From the human T2T-CHM13v2.0 reference genome, Homo sapiens, in contig CP068257.2 in the NCBI GenBank assembly GCA_009914755.4, positions 33,664,001 through 33,728,000 of the forward strand: a stretch of DNA of 64,000 nucleotides, given 5' to 3'. This document shows positions 14,550 to 59,170 of the stretch, piece after piece (positions within the stretch are counted from its first letter, which is position 1; each line of letters begins with the position of its first letter). The translations under genes were made by a program, and so were the position numbers. The notes under the pieces are model-generated. The model was not told where the DNA came from and ran no database searches. It was given only the letters and a program-made list of their open reading frames with translations.

Positions 14550-15130
14550 TTATCAGGTGTGTTAGTTTTGTGTGTCAACTAGATGAGCCACAGGAAGCTC
14601 AAATGAAACGTGATTTCAGGGTGTGTCTGTGCGGACGTTTCAGGGTAAGATTCGTATTTGAACCAATGGACTCAGTAAATTAGAATTCCCTCCCCAGGAT
14701 GGGTGGGCATCACCCAACCCACTGAGAGACTGAATGAAACAAAAGGCAGAGGGAGGAGGAATTCATTCTTCTACTTCCTGCCTGCTTGAGCTGGTACATC
14801 TCACCTCATCTTCTCCAGCTCTTGGACTGAAATTTATACCATCAGCATCCCTGCCTCTCAAGTCCTGAGACTTGGACTAAATTAAACCAACAGCCTTCCT
14901 TGGTCCCCAGCTTCTTGACAGCAGATCGTGGGTCTTCTCAGCCTCCATAATCACATGAACCAATTCCTCAAATCTCCTTTCATATATGTATTTTACACAT
15001 ATATACACACACACAAACACACACACCAACACACACACACACCTATAGATACACTCACACATCTAGGTATCTGTACATATGTCCTATTGGTTCTGCTTCT
15101 TTGGGAGAACTCTAATACACCAGGTGTTTC
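14550..15130 (+). mobile_element. Solo ERVL LTR (MLT2-like) with an internal (CA)n-rich microsatellite at about 15000-15060
   Basis: Starts gtgtgtcaactagatgagccacagg...gatgggtgggcatcacccaacccactgagagactgaatgaaacaaaaggcagagggagg...cttgagctggtacatc...cagcagatcgtgggtcttctcagcctccataatcacatgaaccaattcctcaaatctcctttcatatatg...cctattggttctgcttctttgggagaactctaatacaccagg. These are the diagnostic MLT2 blocks (tgtgtcaa.., gtgggcctcatccaatc.., cagatcttgggacttctcagcctccataatcgtgtgagccaattcc.., cctattggttctgtttctctggagaaccctgactaatacag). Confidence 0.7.
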
Positions 15131-15518
15131 AAGCAAAGAACTTTGCTAGCCTGTAGTGTTAACCTGCAGACTGCTAGAAATTGTCATGAGTACACCCATT
15201 TCTTTTAGCTAGTCTCTGGGATCTAGTAGATAGGATCGCATAAACTTCATGGTTGACAAACCCCAACCATATGGACGTGTCAGGAGGCCTGTTCCCATAT
15301 TTGAACACGGCTTCTGCAGCTTCTGCAGGTGCAGATGGTCATTTTATTTTGCTGAAAACTAAGTGTATACATTCATTTTTTTTGTGTTCAACTCTGGTGC
15401 CAACTGGAGTCCCCCAGTCACTGAAGATCCAGAGATGAGCTCCAGTGCCTTTTCTGTGACTTGTGTAAAGTAGAACAGACCAGTCCCCAAGAGGTTTTCA
15501 GACTCTTTTGGTTTGGAG

Positions 15519-15878
15519 GTGATACGGTCTGGCTGTGTTCCCACCCAAATCTCATCTTGAATTGTAGCTCCCACAATCCCCATGTGTCATGGAAGAACCC
15601 CGTGGGAGGTAATTGAATCATGGGGGCAGGTTGTTCCTGCGCTGTTCTCGTGATAGTGAATAAGTCTCATGAGATCTGATGGTTTTATAAAAGGCAGTTC
15701 CCCTGCACACGCTCTCTTGCCTGCCACCATGTAAGACATGGCTTTGCTCCTCCTTTGCCTTCCGCCATGATTGTGAGGCCTCTCCAGCCATGTGGAACTG
15801 TGAGTCCATTAAACATTTTTCCTTCATTAACCAGTCTTGGGTATATCCTTATAGCGGCATGAGAACGAACTAATACAG
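15519..15878 (+). mobile_element. Solo ERVL-MaLR LTR, MST/THE1-type
   Basis: tgatacggtctggctgtgttcccacccaaatctcatcttgaattgtagctcccacaatccccatgtgtcatggaagaaccccgtgggaggtaattgaatcatgggggcagg...gcctgccaccatgtaagacatggctttgctcctcctttgccttccgccatgattgtgaggcctctccagccatgtggaactgtgagtccattaaac...gagaacgaactaatacagg. Near full length and close to the THE1/MST consensus. Confidence 0.9.
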
Positions 15879-16115: not shown

Positions 16116-16439
16116 GGACTGAATGCTTGTGCCTCCCTCAAATTCATATGTTAAAAACCCCACCCACTAATGTGACAGTATTAGGAGGTGGGGTCTTTGA
16201 GAGGTAATTAGGAATAGATGAGCTCATGAAGGTGGAGCCCTCATGAATGGGATTCACATCCTTATGAGTCCTGAGAGAGCTTGCTTCCCCTCCTTACCAG
16301 GTGAGGACACAGCAAAAAGACAGCAATGAACCAGGAATTGGGCCTTCACCAGGCACCAGAACTGGGAAAAATGAGTGTCTGCTGTGTGAGCCACCCAGTT
16401 TACAGTATTTTGTTGTGACAGCCAGAGCTCACTCAGACA

Positions 16440-16700
16440 GGGACACACATGCTCATCCCTCACCACACACACACACACGATCGTCCCCCTCACACACATG
16501 CACACACACAGACACACACATAGGTTCACCTCTCTGTCCTCTCTTTCTTTTTCTTGGATACACATTCACTTTCATTCTCATACACATTCACAGACACACA
16601 TGTTCACACAGACACACATGCTCACACATGCATTCTCACTCTTACACACACACACCCTTCCTCTTTCTCTTTCACATACGCATCTGAGAAACCTACACAC
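16440..16700. repeat. Degenerate CA/CACA-rich low-complexity tract
   Basis: Long run of acacacaca / cacatgc / cacagacacaca variants. It generates the His/Thr-rich pseudo-ORFs 16301..16687, 16498..16722 and 16554..17123 (189 aa), which are compositional artefacts. Confidence 0.9.
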
Positions 16701-21100: not shown

Positions 21101-21470
21101 TTGTGATATGGTTTGGCTGTGTCCCCATCCAAGTCTCATCTTGAATTGTAATCCCCATAAACCCTAGGTGTCAAGGGAGGGACCCAGTGGGAGGTGACTG
21201 GATCATGGGTGAGGTTCCCCCCATGCTGTTCTCTTGCTAGTGGGTGAGTTCTCAGAGCTGATGGTTCTACAAGGCAGTTTTCCCTGCTCTTGAATGCTCT
21301 CTCTCACCTGCCACCATGTAAGACGTGCCTGCTTCCCCTTCTGCCATGATTGTAAGTTTCCTGAGGCCTCCCCAGCCATGCAGAACTGTGAGTCAATTAA
21401 ACCTCCTTTCTTTATAAATTACCCAGTCTCAGGTTTTTCTTTATAGCAGTGTGAGAATGAACTAATACAG
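21101..21470 (+). mobile_element. Solo ERVL-MaLR LTR (MST/THE1-type)
   Basis: tgtgatatggtttggctgtgtccccatccaagtctcatcttgaattgtaatccccataaaccctaggtgtcaagggagggacccagtgggaggtgactggatcatgggtg...cctgccaccatgtaagacgtgcctgcttcc...ccccagccatgcagaactgtgagtcaattaaacctcctttctttataaattacccagtctcaggtttttctttatagcagtgtgagaatgaactaatacag. Confidence 0.9.
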
Positions 21471-22109: not shown

Positions 22110-22495
22110 CAGTGTATTAGTCCATTTTCATACTGCCATAAAGAACTGACCCAGACAGGGTAATTTATAAAGGAAAGAGGTTTAATTGACTCACAGTTCA
22201 GCACAGCTGGGGAGGCCTCAGGAAACTTACAATCATGGTGGAAGGCAAAGGGGAAACAAGGCATCTCCTTCACATGGTGGAAGGAAGGAGAAGTGCAGAG
22301 CAAAGGGGGAAGAGCCCCTTATAAAACCATCAGATCTCGTGAGAACTCACTCACTATCAGGAGAACAGCATGGGGGAAACCTCCCCCATGATTCAATTAC
22401 CTCCCCATGGTGTCTTCCTTGACATGTGGGGATTATGGGGATTATAATTCAATATGAGATTTGGGTGGGGACACAAAGCCTAGCCATATCATCCT
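22110..22495 (-). mobile_element. Solo ERVL-MaLR LTR (THE1/MST-type), minus orientation
   Basis: agtgtattagtccattttcatactgccataaagaactgacccagacagggtaatttataaaggaaagaggtttaattgactcacagttcagcacagctggggaggcctcaggaaacttacaatcatggtggaaggcaaagggg...tcatgggggaaacctcccccatgattcaattacctcccc...attataattcaatatgagatttgggtggggacacaaagcctagccatatca is the reverse complement of the THE1/MST consensus. ORFs 22079..22303(-), 22186..22422(+) and 22426..22620(+) lie inside it. Confidence 0.9.
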
Positions 22496-22596: not shown

Positions 22597-22785
22597 TCTA
22601 TACCTTTTTGCCCACTTTAATTATCCTGCACATCTAAAAAGGTACGCACAGCCACCAAAATATGTGTGTGTGTTTTCTGCTAACTTACAATTTCACAAGC
22701 TGGAGAGGCACTTAGGAACTTCAGTTACAATATGTTTTCAGTCTTTGACATAATAAAACATACGCCACATACAAATGAAGTTTAG
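22597..22785 (+). repeat. Copy 1 of a local low-copy duplication (paired with 23828-24075)
   Basis: gcccactttaattatcctgcacatctaaaaaggtacgcacagccaccaaaatatgtgtgtgtgttttctgctaacttacaatttcacaagctggagaggcacttaggaacttcagttacaatatgttttcagtctttgacataataaaacatacgccacatac is roughly 90% identical to 23828-24075, apart from a roughly 55-bp indel next to the GT run. Confidence 0.85.
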
Positions 22786-23827: not shown

Positions 23828-24075
23828 CATAGGATTTTGCCCACTTTAATTATCCTGCACATCTAAAAAAGTGTGCACAGCCTCCAAAATTTGTGTGTGT
23901 GTGTGTATGTGTGTGTGTGCCTGTAGCCATTCACAGGAATATTGCCTGGGGCAAGCACTGGAAGGAGGTTCTGCTAACTTACAATTTCACAAGCTGGAAA
24001 GGCACTTAGGAACTTCAGTTTCAACATGTTTTCAGTCTTTGACATAATAAAACATATGCCATATACACTCACATA
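23828..24075 (+). repeat. Copy 2 of the local duplication (with an expanded (GT)n and a roughly 55-bp extra segment), flanked by short direct and inverted repeats
   Basis: gcccactttaattatcctgcacatctaaaaaagtgtgcacagcctccaaaatttgtgtgtgtgtgtgtatgtgtgtgtgtgcctgtagcc...ttctgctaacttacaatttcacaagctggaaaggcacttaggaacttcagtttcaacatgttttcagtctttgacataataaaacatatgccatatacactcacatagg. Flanks: left ctgattcaaaaccctgaatcACATAGGAT, right cACATAGGATacagtcacagGATTCAGGGTTTTGAA. That is a 9-10-bp direct repeat with inverted ttcaaaaccctgaatc arms outside it. Confidence 0.8.
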
Positions 24076-29545: not shown

Positions 29546-30884
29546 TTTATTTGGATTTAATTAGTTTTCTTCCTGACATCCTCTTTCTGTTCCAGGATGC
29601 CATCCCACATTCCATTTGGTCATCATTGCTCCTTAGTCTCCTCTGGTCTGTTACTTTTCTAAGACATTCCTTGCTGTTCATGACCTTGACAGTTTTGAGA
29701 AGTACCACACTAAAGTGTTTTGTAAAAACCCCTCCATTTGCGTTGCCTCGTGCTTTTCTCATGACTAGCTGGGGGTTATGGGTCTTGGGAAAGAATGTCA
29801 CAGAGAGGAAGTGCCCTTCTCATCACACCATATCTGGGGCACATGGTATCAACACGGCTTATCACTGATGTTGTCAATCTTGATCACCTGGCCAAGGTAA
29901 GTTTTTCCAGGTTTCTCCACTTTAAAGGTAGAGCAGCAGTGACTTTTCTCCATCTTTCCATATTGACTTTTTAGAAGCAAGTCACTAAGCCCAGCCCACA
30001 CTCAAAGGGGCAGGGAGAAGATCTGACTCCACCTCCTGGAAATAGAGACATCTATTCACAACTCTTCTGTAAGGGAGATTCCCCGTTTCCCATTTGTGTA
30101 TTTATTTATTCAATTATTTGTTTATATCAACATAGACTCATAATTTATATCAGTATGGATCATGGAAATGTATGCTTTGGGTTACAGTCCAATTCTATGT
30201 TATTTATTTTCTTGCTGAAATTGCTCCAGCTTTGGCCACGGAGAGTTTGTTCAGGTTGGCTCCTATGCCCTTTTCTGTGTCCTCAACCTTTTGTTTTTCT
30301 AGCACTTCCTTACTTTCTGTAATTAGAAATTACTCCAGGAGCATCTTGAATTTTTCCTGTCCCAGTCCTAGAATCTATCATGTTTTCATCTATTTTTAAG
30401 AATGAAAGAAAATTATTCCCTTTAACCTAAAAATGGGCAAATTCACAGATATCTCAAAATATCACTTGTGTTTAGATTTGTTAGAGATCAATGAAGTGGC
30501 TATTTTGAGGAGCACTTTTCTGAAGAGGCATTATCTCTCCTAATGGAGCTAATGATATCAGGTATTATAAGAGTCATTAAAATTTAGAATCTGGTTGGAT
30601 GATTGATCCGTTTTTGCAACTCCGAATATTTTAGTGACAAACTTCTAGCCAAAACATCTGCATTTATATGTAGGTGAAATTAGGTATTCTCCTGCCAAAC
30701 TGAAGAATAGGTCTCAGCTGGGATAGCTCCTACCAGAGAGAAATTTGCATTGTCTTGAATGAAAGGGGTTTCAGTTGAAATATTAGTTGGGTTATGCCTG
30801 TAAGGGTGTTTCAGGATGAGATTAGCATTTGACTCAGTGGACTCAGTAAAGTCAATTGCCCTCCTCAATACAAGTGAGCATCAT

Positions 30885-31310
30885 TCAATCTGTTTAGGAA
30901 CTGAAAACAACAATCACTTATTGAGTCACAGTTCTGTATGTTGGCAATCTGGGCGGGCCTCCCCTGGGAGGTTCTTCTGCTGGTCTCTCCTGGGCTCAGC
31001 CATGTGATCATCCAATGCCAGGGAGACGGAAGGAGTAACTTGTGTTGATAGCTTTACAGTTTGTGTTTCCAGTCTGTTATAAGAACTGACCATACCTTGT
31101 TCCTAGGATTCTCGAAATGCATCTGTATACTTCCAACTATATTGCCTGAATCTTTGATAATTCAAGTGAGTTTCTGTTCCTTTAGACAAAACAATGACCA
31201 AGAAAAGTTTCTTTAAGATTCTATTTTAATGTCTGTATTAATTAGAATATGTATTATCTGTCCTTCTAATAACAAAATTCGACATCCCGGTGATTTAAAA
31301 TAATAAAAAC
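30885..31310 (+). repeat. Segment A+B of a complex local duplication (A = 30885-31003, B = 31017-31310)
   Basis: A: ..tgtttaggaactgaaaacaacaatcacttattgagtcacagttctgtatgttggcaatctgggcgggcctcccctgggaggttcttctgctggtctctcctgggctcagc. B: gccagggagacggaaggagtaacttgtgttgatagctttacagtttgtg...ttcgacatcccggtgatttaaaataataaaaa. A is repeated directly at 31366-31480. B is repeated inverted at 32188-32482. Confidence 0.85.
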
Positions 31311-31335
31311 ACAATTGCTGCTCATCCAGCAGAGG

Positions 31336-31490
31336 TGGCATTGGACGCTGTCTCCCTGGCATTACCCAATCTGTTAATGGAATGAAAACAGCAATCAGTT
31401 ATTGATTCACAGTTCTGTCTGTTGGCAATCTGAGCGGGCCTCCACTGGAAGGTTCTTCTGCTGGTCTCTCCTGGGCTCAGCGGCGTGACA
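31336..31490 (+). repeat. Direct copy A' of segment A, preceded by a roughly 20-bp inverted scrap of the start of B
   Basis: ggcattggacgctgtctccctggcatt (an inverted copy of ..aatgccagggagacgg..) followed by ..ctgttaatggaatgaaaacagcaatcagttattgattcacagttctgtctgttggcaatctgagcgggcctccactggaaggttcttctgctggtctctcctgggctcagc. Confidence 0.8.
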
Positions 31491-31689
31491 GCAGTCAGCT
31501 GGTAGGTGAGTGGAGTGCAGCAGCCTGGTCTTGCCTCACGCACATGTCTGCTGCTGTGTTCCGACTGTCAGTGAGGCCCTCCCTCCACATGGTCTCTCAT
31601 ACTCAAGGAGGCCAGCCTGGGCTTCTTGCCCCCAGTATATATTTAACTTTTGAGTTTTGTGCTTTCAGGGTCAATGTTTTTCATCTCTG

Positions 31690-31870
31690 GATTCAGACCA
31701 CAAGTCACATACAGGCTTGTGCTTTCGGACAAGTAACTTAACTGCTCTAAACCTTTGCTATGATAATAAAAGGAGAACAGATACAAACCGCATAATGCGA
31801 TACCTGGCAAGTGGAAAGTCTCAAAAACCATCAGCTACTACAATGAGTATTGTTGTTGTTGTTATTTTTA
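31690..31870 (+). mobile_element. Possible diverged MIR fragment inside the spacer of the inverted duplication
   Basis: ..ggcttgtgctttcggacaagtaacttaactgctctaaacctttgctatgataataaaaggagaacagatacaaaccgcataatgcgatacctggcaagtggaaag.. is loosely like MIR (..gggcaagttacttaacctctctgagcctcagtttcctcatctgtaaaatggggataataatagtacc..). Confidence 0.3.
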
Positions 31871-32187
31871 GTATTATTATTAAATCTAACACATCCCTTC
31901 CCTGCCACGAGGTTAGGTGTGATCATGTGACTGACTTCTGGCTGAAGGAATGTGAGAAGAAATGACACAAACCATTTGTAGGCCTGACCCAGGAAAACTT
32001 CTCTGTGATCCTCTCCACACTTTTTCTCCTTCTTGGTCTGCCAGCTGGATGACACAAAAAATCTAAAGAGAACTTGGGGACCCTAAGGAATCAGGAGCCA
32101 CAAATTGGAAAGGTCCCGAGTCTTTGTGCGTACCTGTGAAAGGCCAGTCACTGAGCATCCACATCTAGTGCATGAGCTGGAATTATA

Positions 32188-32482
32188 TTTTTATTATTTT
32201 AAATCACTGAGATGTCGAGAGTTTTGTTATTTGAGGGACAAATAGTATGTATCCTAATTAATACAGACATTAAAATGGAATCTTAAAGAAATTTTCTTGG
32301 TCATTTTTTTTTTCTAAAGAAACAAACTCACTTGAATTATCAAAGATTTGGGCAATATAGTTGGAAGTATACAGATGTATCTCAAGAATCCTAGGAACAA
32401 GGTACAGTCAGTTTTCATGACAGACAGGAACCACAAACTGTAAAGCTATCAACATAAGTTACTCCTTCCGTCTCCCTGGCAG
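32188..32482 (-). repeat. Inverted copy B' of segment B (the right arm of a roughly 295-bp inverted repeat with a roughly 880-bp spacer)
   Basis: The reverse complement of 32188-32482 reads ccatatactgccagggagacggaaggagtaacttatgttgatagctttacagtttgtggttcctgtctgtcatgaaaactgactgtaccttgttcctaggattcttgagatacatctgtatacttccaactatattgcc...ctcgacatctcagtgatttaaaataataaaaat. This is about 88-90% identical to 31017-31310. Confidence 0.85.
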
Positions 32483-32701
32483 TATATGGAGGCTTATTTC
32501 TGGTTTTCTGCGTGCTCTTTATTTCTTTCTTTCTGCCTACAGATTGGCTTTCTTTGCTTCTCAGGTTGCCCTAGAGACCCTCTCAGAGATGATTGGCTCA
32601 AGCTGAGCCAAAATGTACTCCCTGGTCGAACCAGCTGTGACTAAAGGGCAGAGCCACCTTGCACAACAGTCAGTTCCCACAGAAAGAAGGGGACCCCCCT
32701 T

Positions 32702-33071
<370 letters not shown>

Positions 33072-48029: not shown

Positions 48030-48300
48030 GTGAATTCCATCTTCTTGCCATTTCCAATGGGTTGGAGCCATGCGGCTAGTCCTTCCAATCCCTTGCTGCA
48101 GCAGTTATAGAAAAGGTCTTGTGTTGACATGGCCAAGCCCCAAGATCGAAGCAACCTGTATTACTAGGTTGTAACTCAGAAGAAAGTTGCCTCGAGGAGT
48201 TTCTTAAAGCTGTAACAGACTCAGCCTGAGTGAGAAATAAACCTTTGTGGTATCAAGCCACTGAGATGGTGGATGTGTTTATTTATAACAGCATGCCCAG
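48030..48300 (+). mobile_element. Ancient MaLR-like LTR fragment (same family as 9960-10262)
   Basis: ..ccatgcggctagtcc...gcctgagtgagaaataaacctttgtggtatcaagccactgagatggtggatgtgtttatttataacagcatgcccaggtttactctagc matches the family tail ..gagtgagaaataaacctttgttgttttaagccactgagattttggggttgttttgttactgcagcataacctagcc. Confidence 0.4.
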
Positions 48301-50564: not shown

Positions 50565-50997
50565 TGTGATGGTTAATTTTATGTGTCAACTTGGCTAGGG
50601 TATGGTGCCCAGATATTTGGTCAAACGTTATTCTAGATGTTTCTGTGAAGATTTTTTTCGATGAGATTAACATTTAAACAGGCAGACTTTGAGTAAGGCA
50701 GATTTTCCTCCATAATGGGGGTGGGCCTTATCCAGTCACTTGAAGTTCTTAATAGAAAAAAGACTGACCTCACCCAAGCAAGAAGGAATTCTGCCAGCAT
50801 ATTGCCTTTGGATTTAAACTGCAATCCTTCTTGGGTTTCCTGCCTACCACCCTATCCTGCAGATTTTGCACTTGCTAGCCTCTACTGTCCCATGGACCAA
50901 TTCCTTCAAATTAATCTCTCTTTTGTCCTCTCTCTACATATGCACATCCTGTTGGTTCTATATCTCTGCAGAACTCTGACTAATACAGCACTTCTAC
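50565..50997 (+). mobile_element. Solo ERVL LTR (MLT2-like), near full length
   Basis: gtgtcaacttggctagggtatggtgcccagatatttggtcaaacgttattctagatgtttctgtgaagatttttttcgatgagattaacatttaaacaggcagactttgagtaaggcagattttcctccataatgggggtgggccttatccagtcacttgaagttcttaatagaaaaaagactgacc...ctgttggttctatatctctgcagaactctgactaatacagc. Matches the MLT2 consensus almost block for block. The 192-aa ORF 50715..51293 starts inside this LTR and is spurious. Confidence 0.85.
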
Positions 50998-58837: not shown

Positions 58838-59170
58838 TCACTTAAGAATATGGATATTTTACATAGAGAAATTGATTTTACACTCCTTTTGCAAACCCTG
58901 AAGGTCTGGCCATGCCAGTTTCTCATTCTCACAAGTCAGCAAGAGCAGGTATGGAGGAGAGAATCAGATGACCTCTCCAGCTTTCTACTTTGTACATGAC
59001 CTTGTGAGTATTTCTGCCTAAGAGTCACTTAAGAATACAGATATTTTACATAGAGAAATTGATTGTACACTCTTTTGCAAACCCTGAAGGTCTGGCCATG
59101 CCAGGCTCTTATTCTCACAAGTTACCAAGACCAGGTATGGAGGAGAGAATCAGGTGACCTCTCCAGCTGG
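58838..59170 (+). repeat. Roughly 187-bp tandem duplication (about 1.8 units), with a third partial copy at 60742-60795
   Basis: Unit 1: cacttaagaatatggatattttacatagagaaattgattttacactccttttgcaaaccctgaaggtctggccatgccagtttctcattctcacaagtcagcaagagcaggtatggaggagagaatcagatgacctctccagctttctactttgtacatgaccttgtgagtatttctgcctaagagt. Unit 2: cacttaagaatacagatattttacatagagaaattgattgtacactcttttgcaaaccctgaaggtctggccatgccaggctcttattctcacaagttaccaagaccaggtatggaggagagaatcaggtgacctctccagctgg.... 60742-60795 reads tatgaatttctactttgtacacgacctcgtatttctgcctaagagcc, which matches the unit-1 3' end. Confidence 0.9.

What the first reader, a model, noticed from the sequence alone, without database searches (positions are those of the whole stretch)
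30885..32482. Roughly 295-bp inverted duplication with a roughly 880-bp spacer, embedded in a direct/inverted rearrangement (A-B ... b'-A' ... B-inverted)
Segment B (31017-31310) reappears inverted at 32188-32482 with about 88-90% identity. That is a potential 295-bp-stem, 880-nt-loop hairpin or cruciform. Segment A (30885-31003) reappears directly at 31366-31480. Just before A' there is a roughly 20-bp inverted scrap of the start of B (ggcattggacgctgtctccctggcatt). None of A or B matches a repeat family I recognise. So this looks like a locus-specific duplication, inversion and partial deletion event. Alternatively it could be an unannotated element with long terminal inverted repeats. Long imperfect palindromes are known fragile or recombinogenic structures, and can also produce hairpin RNAs if transcribed.
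Basis: seen in the sequence. Interest (0 to 1): 0.5.

Follow-up and report, generated by a model that had tools for sequence, protein, structure and literature searches.

The report
Ancient local inverted duplication scar
A 350-base piece of non-coding primate DNA was copied long ago, flipped, and inserted about 770 bases upstream between two copies of a 130-base target segment; this is an ordinary neutral scar of faulty DNA replication or repair, not a new mobile element or gene.

Summary
The repeats are real. B (31016-31366) is an inverted copy of B' (32137-32481), 87% identical. A (30878-31007) is repeated directly at 31359-31488, 86-87% identical. B sits between A and A'.

B' is not a mobile unit. 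It starts inside a MaLR-type LTR (about 31898-32265), crosses the LTR end at 32265 and runs 215 bp into the flank. Three independent MaLR copies lose homology at that LTR end, while B keeps matching. So B is a segmental copy of arbitrary local sequence, and B' is the source.

The two repeat pairs are equally diverged. The A|B junction has an 8-bp filler. The inner end of B carries 10-nt and 14-nt inverted patches that copy that new junction. The single-copy spacer is 770 bp.

Best reading: one old event (roughly 30-65 Myr, inferred) of fold-back or serial template switching, which inserted an inverted templated copy and duplicated the target.

The long-TIR-element and two-independent-insertions readings are rejected. 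If transcribed, the arms would form a ~308-bp dsRNA stem, but no Rfam family, ORF or other sign of function was found.

No whole genome, Dfam library or primate orthologue was available, so dating and single-copy status are untested. Interest is low.

The parts
30764..30877 (+). 5' part of an LTR-like dispersed repeat ('LTR-X') lying just upstream of A
   Evidence: 30764-30920 matches LTRs at 14592-14742 (E 2e-14) and 50621-50767 (E 1e-5) in the same window. Those copies start TGTGTCAAC and end CTAATACA.
30878..31007 (+). A: left copy of the duplicated target segment (130 bp)
   Evidence: Ungapped 86.9% match to 31359-31488, E 5e-36. Homology with A'+R ends after GTGA at 31007.
31008..31015 (+). 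8-bp filler TCATCCAA at the A|B junction
   Evidence: It matches neither the continuation of A' nor B'. It resembles the start of A (TCATTCAA, 30881-8) and of A' (TTACCCAA, 31362-9).
31016..31366 (-). B: derived, inverted copy of 32137-32481
   Evidence: blastn and nhmmer. Identity is 87.1% over 341 aligned positions, K2P 0.143. It carries both the LTR tail and the non-LTR flank in the same arrangement as B'.
31336..31363 (+). Two short inverted patches (31336-45 and 31350-63) that copy the new junction 31011-27 and give B 14-nt perfect terminal inverted repeats
   Evidence: exact 10-nt and 14-nt inverted matches; 0 of 5000 shuffles reach 14 nt. B' has CAGTGACTGGCC at this position.
31359..31488 (+). 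A': right copy of the duplicated target, which runs on uninterrupted into 31489-31630
   Evidence: Positions 31359-31368 match A and the reverse complement of B' equally well (7 of 10 each), so this is an ambiguous or microhomology junction.
31367..32136 (+). Single-copy spacer between the inner ends of the arms (770 bp): A', the rest of LTR-X, a MIR-like stretch (identified from memory only) and the body of the MaLR LTR
   Evidence: The orientation is unchanged: A' is direct relative to A, and the LTR body is contiguous with its tail.
31898..32265 (+). MaLR (MLT1-like) LTR whose last ~130 bp lie inside B'
   Evidence: L092:1034-1324, an unrelated human contig, aligns to 31905-32231 in one piece, E 3e-4. 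Body alone: 31898-31973 vs L092:1025-1101, z 4.2, 1 of 500 shuffles reach the score. Tail: 32157-32265 vs L092:1247-1355, z 8.2, 0 of 500, ending exactly at the terminal ...ATACA. The tail also matches in-window MaLR LTR ends at 796-863 and 48224-48286, z 7.2 and 4.9.
32137..32481 (+). B': source segment = LTR tail (32137-32265) plus 215 bp of sequence beyond the LTR end (32266-32481)
   Evidence: The part beyond the LTR end has no match to sequence downstream of other MaLR copies, elsewhere in the window, or in 245 kb of human contigs.

Best explanation
This is the relic of one old, local, complex rearrangement in non-coding primate DNA. The ancestral order was L-A-R ... [MaLR LTR body-tail]-flank.

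A break or stalled fork occurred at the A segment of an LTR-like repeat. A 3' end folded back, or switched to the complementary strand, about 770 bp away. It copied about 345 nt (32137 to 32481, i.e. LTR tail plus adjacent flank) in inverted orientation. It then returned to the original template about 130 bp behind its point of departure, so that A was copied twice.

Short abortive switches left an 8-bp filler and 10-nt and 14-nt inverted patches at the junctions. The product is L-A-filler-B(inverted)-A'-R ... B'.

This is fold-back or serial template switching of the FoSTeS/MMBIR type. An equivalent route is fold-back synthesis at a staggered double-strand break, joined by microhomology.

Shown: B is a segmental copy, B' is the source, the two duplications are of equal age within error, and the junctions are patchworks. 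Inferred: that it was a single event, the replicative mechanism, an age of roughly 30-65 Myr, and the absence of function.
For: 1. The arm boundaries are not element boundaries. B' begins in the middle of a MaLR LTR and crosses its 3' end at 32265. Unrelated MaLR copies (L092 and two in the window) lose homology exactly there, while B continues for 215 bp more.
2. The LTR body continues upstream of B' (31898-31973 vs L092, z 4.2). On the side of B where that body would continue lies A'. So B' is in its native context and B is the copy.
3. B/B' is 87% identical, whereas B' matches the other MaLR copies in the window only weakly and only over the conserved tail.
4. The two pairs are equally diverged: A/A' 18 mismatches in 127, B/B' 44 in 341, Fisher p 0.88.
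5. B lies exactly between the two copies of A. There is an 8-bp filler at one junction and up to 10 bp of ambiguous overlap at the other.
6. The inverted patches at the inner end of B copy a junction (31011-27, filler plus B start) that exists only in the rearranged allele.
7. The spacer is single-copy and 770 bp, with short inverted homology at its edge. Sequenced human fold-back duplications have spacers of 766-70,466 bp and 2-8 bp of inverted microhomology (PMC3907307).
8. The spacer orientation is intact, which excludes a simple inversion.
Against: - No orthologous sequence or whole genome could be consulted, so the pre-event state (a single A, no B) is inferred rather than seen.
- Identity is uneven along the arms: 92% in the outer 215 bp against 79-83% in the LTR part (p 0.0007, or 0.02 without the terminal 32 bp). 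One event followed by uniform neutral decay does not predict this.
- The model needs at least three template switches, two of them landing within a few bases of the start of A.
- The 8-bp filler and the perfect 12-14-nt terminal inverted repeats of B can also be read as a target-site duplication plus TIRs.
- A copied tract of 345 nt is long for polymerase-theta-type templated insertions.
Confidence: 0.65

Rival explanations
1. Two separate local events. First a 127-bp tandem duplication (30881-31007). Later an inverted copy of B' was inserted 8 bp into the second unit at a staggered cut, producing an 8-bp target-site duplication (TCATCCAA / TTACCCAA).
For: The sequence fits this exactly. B (TGCC...GGCA, 31016-31361) is flanked by 8-bp direct repeats that agree at 6 of 8 positions. 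The uneven divergence along the structure leaves room for more than one event.
Against: The A/A' and B/B' divergences are indistinguishable. It requires the insertion to land by chance 8 bp from a fresh duplication junction. The GCA at 31359-61 matches the start of A, which this model must treat as coincidence.
Confidence: 0.2
2. B and B' are two copies of a dispersed or locally hopping non-autonomous DNA transposon (MITE or hAT-like), or the two long terminal repeats of one unannotated element.
For: B has perfect 14-nt terminal inverted repeats and an imperfect 8-bp flanking direct repeat.
Against: - B' lacks the inner terminal repeat; its ends share only GCCAG/CTGGC. No flanking direct repeat is evident by eye around B' (sequence).
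- The terminal repeats of B include filler bases outside the B/B' homology.
- The unit is made of a MaLR LTR tail plus its flank, and it starts in the middle of an LTR that continues upstream.
- No further copy exists in the window or in 245 kb of human contigs. B-specific 20- to 24-mers are absent from two collections. These searches have little power.
- The spacer contains unrelated old repeats in their normal arrangement, not the interior of an element.
Confidence: 0.04
3. An inversion formed by staggered breaks, which leaves inverted duplications at its ends.
For: Such inversions are known to leave inverted duplicates flanking the inverted segment (my own knowledge of the Drosophila staggered-break model).
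Against: The segment between the arms is not inverted. A' is direct relative to A and runs on into the rest of LTR-X, and the MaLR LTR body is contiguous with its tail. The second repeat pair, A/A', is direct rather than inverted.
Confidence: 0.03
4. The inverted repeat is maintained because it has a function, as a hairpin RNA (source of small RNAs or an editing substrate) or as a DNA structural element.
For: If transcribed as one RNA, the arms pair in the minimum-free-energy structure. The 1466-nt fold has -669.8 kcal/mol. About 308 of 351 arm positions pair with the other arm. Cofold energy is -442 kcal/mol against -147 +/- 5 with a shuffled partner. The outer 215 bp is better conserved between the arms (92%).
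Against: The arms have decayed to 87% with five indel events, as expected for neutral sequence. No Rfam family matches the arms. No ORF product from the region is on record. Any recent inverted duplication folds this way.
Confidence: 0.04

Closest known systems
Fold-back inverted duplications with a single-copy spacer (Hermetz et al. 2014, PMC3907307)
   Same: The inverted copy lies in cis. A non-duplicated spacer lies between the arms (770 bp here, against 766-70,466 bp in that study). There is short inverted homology or inserted bases at the spacer/inversion junction.
   Different: Those events duplicate kilobases to megabases and end in terminal deletions, translocations or rings. Here only ~345 nt were copied, and the strand returned to its own locus, leaving an interstitial insertion with a 130-bp target duplication.
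FoSTeS/MMBIR complex rearrangements (serial replicative template switching; named from my own knowledge, reviewed in PMC9199198)
   Same: Several junctions within a short distance, filler and templated patches, a duplication combined with an inverted segment, and microhomology-sized overlaps.
   Different: The scale is hundreds of bases rather than kilobases to megabases. The event is an old fixed one in a reference-like sequence, so junction microhomologies have been blurred by about 13% divergence.
Short template-switch mutations (Loytynoja and Goldman 2017, PMC5453318)
   Same: The 10-nt and 14-nt inverted patches at 31336-63 look like such events: a short stretch replaced by the reverse complement of nearby sequence, creating a perfect inverted repeat.
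   Different: Those events are short-range (from my own knowledge, typically tens of bases). The template here is ~330 bp away, and the main 345-nt copy is much longer.
MITE or hAT-like non-autonomous DNA transposons
   Same: B is ~350 bp with 12-14-nt perfect terminal inverted repeats and an 8-bp flanking direct repeat.
   Different: The second copy lacks these features. The 'element' consists of an LTR tail plus its flank, and no other copies were found.
Inverted pairs of dispersed repeats, such as inverted Alu pairs, or the THE1/MST-type LTR pair at 21104-21469 / 22113-22491 in this window
   Same: They give the same kind of imperfect long inverted repeat and the same potential for dsRNA if transcribed.
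   Different: Those arms are complete elements with their own ends (TGATATGG...CTAATACA) and are as diverged as the family is (80%). B/B' boundaries cut across element ends.

Membership tests
Dispersed DNA transposon / MITE with terminal inverted repeats | Terminal inverted repeats at the ends of every copy | tested here: not met
   B has a 14-nt perfect TIR. The ends of B' share only 5 nt. The TIR of B includes bases outside the B/B' homology.
Dispersed DNA transposon / MITE with terminal inverted repeats | Each copy flanked by its own target-site duplication | tested here: not met
   B is flanked by TCATCCAA / TTACCCAA (6 of 8). No flanking direct repeat is evident around B' by eye (sequence); this was not scored formally.
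Dispersed DNA transposon / MITE with terminal inverted repeats | Copy boundaries are element boundaries (the unit does not cross the ends of other elements) | tested here: not met
   B' starts inside a MaLR LTR and crosses its 3' end at 32265.
Dispersed DNA transposon / MITE with terminal inverted repeats | Many copies at unrelated loci | tested here: inconclusive
   There is none in the 64-kb window or in 245 kb of human contigs. B-specific 20- to 24-mers are absent from the metagenome and genome collections. No whole genome or Dfam library was available, so power is low.
Fold-back / template-switch inverted duplication | Inverted copy in cis, separated from its source by a single-copy spacer in the original orientation | tested here: met
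   Arms are 31016-31366 and 32137-32481; the spacer is 770 bp and collinear.
Fold-back / template-switch inverted duplication | Microhomology, filler or templated patches at the junctions | tested here: met
   There is an 8-bp filler, 10-nt and 14-nt inverted patches, and a 10-bp ambiguous overlap at the B|A' junction. The exact length of the original microhomology cannot be recovered after 13% divergence.
Fold-back / template-switch inverted duplication | All duplicated parts are of the same age (one event) | tested here: inconclusive
   A/A' and B/B' do not differ (p 0.88). Within B, however, the outer and inner parts do differ (p 0.0007, or 0.02 without the terminal 32 bp).
Fold-back / template-switch inverted duplication | Derived state absent from outgroup species, which carry L-A-R and B' only | not testable with these tools
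   No primate genomes are held. Protein-based routes to orthologous contigs found nothing.
MaLR (MLT1-like) LTR, for 31898-32265 | Collinear homology to independent LTR copies, ending at the conserved 3' terminus (...AAGCCACTGAGAT...ATACA) | tested here: met
   L092 matches with E 3e-4 over 31905-32231. The tail gives z 8.2, 7.2 and 4.9 against three copies. The alignment ends at 32265. The subfamily name rests on memory, not on a library.
Human segmental duplication in the formal sense | At least 1 kb long and at least 90% identical (standard definition, from my own knowledge) | tested here: not met
   The arms are 350 bp at 87%. It is a sub-threshold small duplication.
Known structured RNA gene (miRNA or other hairpin RNA) | Match to a curated RNA family | tested here: not met
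   There is no Rfam hit in the arms at E<=1. The only hits are sub-threshold Alu-related ones at 32701-32977 and a chance-level FTX_1 hit at 30399-30458, E 0.96.

The most novel reading that the evidence does not exclude
The perfect 14-nt terminal inverted repeats and the 8-bp flanking repeat of B are not by-products of template switching. Instead they record a transposase-like (hAT-type, 8-bp stagger) mobilisation of an ordinary, non-transposon genomic segment. Alternatively, the arms are kept as a transcribed ~308-bp dsRNA hairpin, with the better-conserved outer 215 bp under selection.
Probability: 0.04. Interest if true: 0.55.

Novelty: new member of a known kind. Interest (0 to 1): 0.15.

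Why it matters
In itself it matters little. It is one more fixed, probably neutral small structural change built from old repeats.

It is a clean, nucleotide-level example of a sub-kilobase inverted templated insertion with a long target duplication and patchwork junctions. Repeat annotation alone would misread it as two oppositely oriented LTR fragments.

Cases like this help calibrate how often replication or repair template switching, rather than transposition, creates inverted repeats and potential dsRNA hairpins in primate genomes.

Tried and rejected
- Orthologous or other human copies through proteins. The exact look-up of the 102-aa spacer ORF and a search with 14 concatenated ORFs from 30.1-33.4 kb found nothing, so random human ORFs are not in those collections.
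- B-specific exact 20- to 24-mers in the metagenome and genome collections: no hits. The locus is simply not sampled there, so this says little about copy number.
- An Alu 34-mer in the viral contigs: no human DNA is held there.
- An Alu 23-mer in the metagenome contigs: this gave 120 human contigs (245 kb), a small random genome sample. It yielded one informative MaLR LTR (L092) and no relative of A or of the flank part of B.
- LTR body 31885-32136 against the two in-window MaLR LTRs: not significant (z 1.3 and 0.9), probably because they belong to different subfamilies. Continuity of the LTR across 32137 therefore rests on L092 plus my memory of MLT1 consensus sequence.
- Polarising the B/B' differences with four other MaLR tails: 10 derived in B, 4 in B', 13 ambiguous. 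Too few to say that the copy was made by error-prone synthesis.
- L1-mediated retro-insertion was considered and rejected. Neither end of B has a poly(A) tail.
- A simple inversion was considered and rejected. The spacer is not inverted.
- Rfam, window-wide and locally at a permissive threshold: nothing in the arms.
Full report
**Setting.** The window is Alu-bearing primate DNA. There is an Alu at 32700-32997 and about ten Alu copies in all. GC content is about 40%. No Rfam family reaches its gathering score, and no ORF looks coding. The tools hold no vertebrate genome and no repeat library. The argument therefore rests on the window itself, on 245 kb of human contigs fished from metagenome assemblies, and on general knowledge, which I mark as such.

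**Observation.** Both repeats exist.
- blastn gives 31009-31338 against 32488-32159 (inverted) at 86.8% over 333 columns, E 1e-96.
- It gives 30878-31007 against 31359-31488 (direct, ungapped) at 86.9%, E 5e-36.
- nhmmer extends the inverted pair to 31017-31366 / 32480-32137, E 3e-68.
- I therefore call the arms B = 31016-31366 and B' = 32137-32481. The spacer between their inner ends is 31367-32136, 770 bp.
- Neither A nor B has another copy in the 64 kb.

**What the pieces are.** The first ~40 bp of A (30878 to ~30920) continue a 30764-30920 match to two LTRs elsewhere in the window, at 14592-14742 and 50621-50767, which begin TGTGTCAAC and end CTAATACA.

The inner third of B' is the 3' tail of a MaLR-type LTR.
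- 32164-32230 matches the 3' ends of two in-window MaLR LTRs (796-863, z 7.2; 48224-48286, z 4.9; 0 of 300 shuffles each).
- An unrelated human contig, L092, aligns to 31905-32231 in one piece (nhmmer E 3e-4 in a 245-kb search).
- Taken separately, the LTR body upstream of B' (31898-31973) matches L092:1025-1101 (z 4.2; 1 of 500 shuffles).
- The tail (32157-32265) matches L092:1247-1355 (z 8.2; 0 of 500). That alignment ends exactly at the LTR terminus...TAATACA at 32265 against ...TGATACA at 1355.
- Beyond that terminus L092 and the window are unrelated. The reverse complement of B, however, goes on matching B' for another 215 bp.
- This 215-bp part matches nothing downstream of the other MaLR copies, nothing else in the window and nothing in the human sample.
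- It does not begin with a primer-binding-site-like TGG (read directly from the sequence). It is therefore flank, not LTR-retrotransposon interior.

**Consequence.** B' runs from an arbitrary point inside an LTR, across the LTR's insertion boundary, to an arbitrary point in the flank. A second copy with the same composite arrangement cannot be an independent insertion of a repeat family. B is a segmental copy.

The LTR body continues upstream of B', whereas A' lies where that body would continue next to B. B' is therefore the source and B the derived copy. The 87% identity of B/B' also contrasts with the weak, tail-only similarity between B' and other MaLR copies.

The window provides a control. 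The THE1/MST-type LTRs at 21104-21469 and 22113-22491 also form an inverted pair with a 640-bp spacer. Their arms, however, are whole elements with their own ends and family-level divergence (80%). That is what 'two independent insertions' looks like.

**Junctions.**
- On the left, homology between A and A'+R stops after GTGA at 31007.
- Homology between B and B' starts at T31016.
- Between them lie 8 bp, TCATCCAA. These equal the majority-rule start of the A unit (A has TCATTCAA at 30881-8; A' has TTACCCAA at 31362-9).
- On the right, 31359-31368 (GCATTACCCA) matches A and the reverse complement of B' equally well (7 of 10 each). This is an overlap of microhomology size, blurred by later substitutions.
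- The last ~30 bp of B match B' poorly (17 of 27 positions, with a 6-bp gap).
- Instead they contain two exact inverted copies of the left junction: 31350-31363 is the reverse complement of 31014-31027, and 31336-31345 is the reverse complement of 31011-31020. None of 5000 shuffles reaches 14 nt.
- Both patches include filler bases (31011-15). They were therefore templated on the rearranged molecule itself.
- The ends of B' share only GCCAG/CTGGC. This 5-nt inverted match could have primed a snap-back.

**Age and number of events.** B/B' has 44 mismatches in 341 aligned positions (K2P 0.143) and five indel events. A/A' has 18 in 127 (K2P 0.158). The two do not differ (Fisher p 0.88). With commonly used neutral rates of 1.2-2.2e-9 per site per year (my own knowledge), this implies roughly 30-65 Myr. 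That figure is an inference.

Identity is uneven within the arms: 92.0% in the 215-bp flank part against 78.7% in the LTR part (p 0.0007), or 82.5% without the terminal 32 bp (p 0.02). I cannot explain this. Candidates are gene conversion of the outer part, rate heterogeneity, constraint on one copy, or error-prone synthesis. Polarising the LTR-part differences with four other MaLR tails gives 10 changes on B, 4 on B' and 13 ambiguous, which is not significant.

**Mechanism.** The product, L-A-filler-B(inverted)-A'-R...B', is an insertion of an inverted, locally templated copy flanked by a 130-bp duplication of the target, with the intervening 770 bp left untouched.
- This geometry is what fold-back priming or a switch to the complementary strand gives. 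A 3' end at the start of A pairs about 770 bp away at 32137, copies to 32481, and returns to its own template ~130 bp behind its point of departure. Short abortive switches account for the filler and patches.
- Sequenced human fold-back duplications show the same signature at a larger scale: single-copy spacers of 766-70,466 bp and 2-8 bp of inverted microhomology or insertions at the spacer/inversion junction (PMC3907307).
- Short template-switch mutations (PMC5453318) are the known small-scale counterpart of the patches.
- An equivalent DSB version is staggered nicks 130 nt apart, fold-back synthesis from one 3' overhang, then microhomology-mediated joining. It predicts the same sequence, and I cannot separate the two versions.
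- I put about 0.9 on 'locus-specific segmental copy with B' as the source' and about 0.6-0.65 on 'one template-switching event'.

**Rivals.**
- *Two steps* (a 127-bp tandem duplication, then insertion with an 8-bp target-site duplication). This fits the sequence equally well but needs a coincidence of position. About 0.2.
- *A transposon or long-TIR element.* This fails three of its four defining features (see the membership table). About 0.04.
- *A staggered-break inversion.* This is contradicted by the collinear spacer and by the direct orientation of A/A'.
- *L1-mediated insertion.* This is excluded by the lack of a poly(A) tail.
- *A maintained function as hairpin RNA.* The 1466-nt RNA would fold with the arms paired: MFE -669.8 kcal/mol, about 308 inter-arm pairs, cofold -442 kcal/mol against -147 +/- 5 for a shuffled partner. 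That holds for any inverted duplication, however. The arms have decayed like neutral DNA, and nothing in Rfam matches them.

**Fragility.** In duplex DNA, distance and divergence between inverted repeats reduce their ability to cause breakage. In long single-stranded regions, repeats up to 30 kb apart and up to 25% diverged can still interact (abstract of PMC10164571). With 770 bp and 13%, this locus is at most a weak risk under ordinary conditions. Population data would settle this.

**Verdict.** The alternative of a TIR element does not, and neither does the claim that the segments are unrelated to known repeats. This is an ordinary, old, probably neutral template-switch scar: a new instance of a known kind and of low interest. 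Its value is as a well-resolved small example that repeat annotation alone would misread.

Noticed in passing
window 21104-21469 and 22113-22491 (also 15517-15878): Three THE1/MST-type MaLR LTRs. Two of them form an inverted pair (80.5% identical, ~640-bp spacer) made of complete LTRs with their own ends (TGATATGG...CTAATACA). This is an ordinary 'two insertions' inverted repeat and a useful contrast to B/B'.
   Followed up: partly
window 22606-22773 and 23835-24067: A direct repeat pair, 93-95% identical, ~1.23-1.29 kb apart, interrupted in both copies by a (TG)n run of different length. It could be the two LTRs of a small element or another local duplication.
   Followed up: no
window 58838-58982 and 59025-59168: A tandem duplication with a 187-bp period, 92% identical. 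This is another small local duplication in the same window.
   Followed up: no
window 31016-31231 versus 31232-31366 (and the matching parts of B'): Identity between the arms falls from 92% in the outer non-LTR part to about 80% in the LTR part (p 0.0007, or 0.02 without the terminal 32 bp). This is unexplained; gene conversion, rate heterogeneity or constraint are possible.
   Followed up: partly
window 32700-32997: An Alu element 220 bp beyond the outer end of B'. It gives sub-threshold Rfam hits to Metazoa_SRP, mir-1268 and mir-3135, as Alus usually do. About ten Alu copies lie in the window.
   Followed up: no
window 14570-15127: An ERVL/MaLR-type LTR (TGTGTGTCAAC...CTCTAATACA) with a (CA)n-rich microsatellite inside it at about 14990-15050. 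CA/TG-rich simple sequence at 16300-16700 produces spurious His/Thr-rich ORFs.
   Followed up: no
window 31690-31880: A stretch in the spacer that looks like a MIR element. This is recognised from memory only and was not tested against any library.
   Followed up: no
The viral collection held none.
   Followed up: partly
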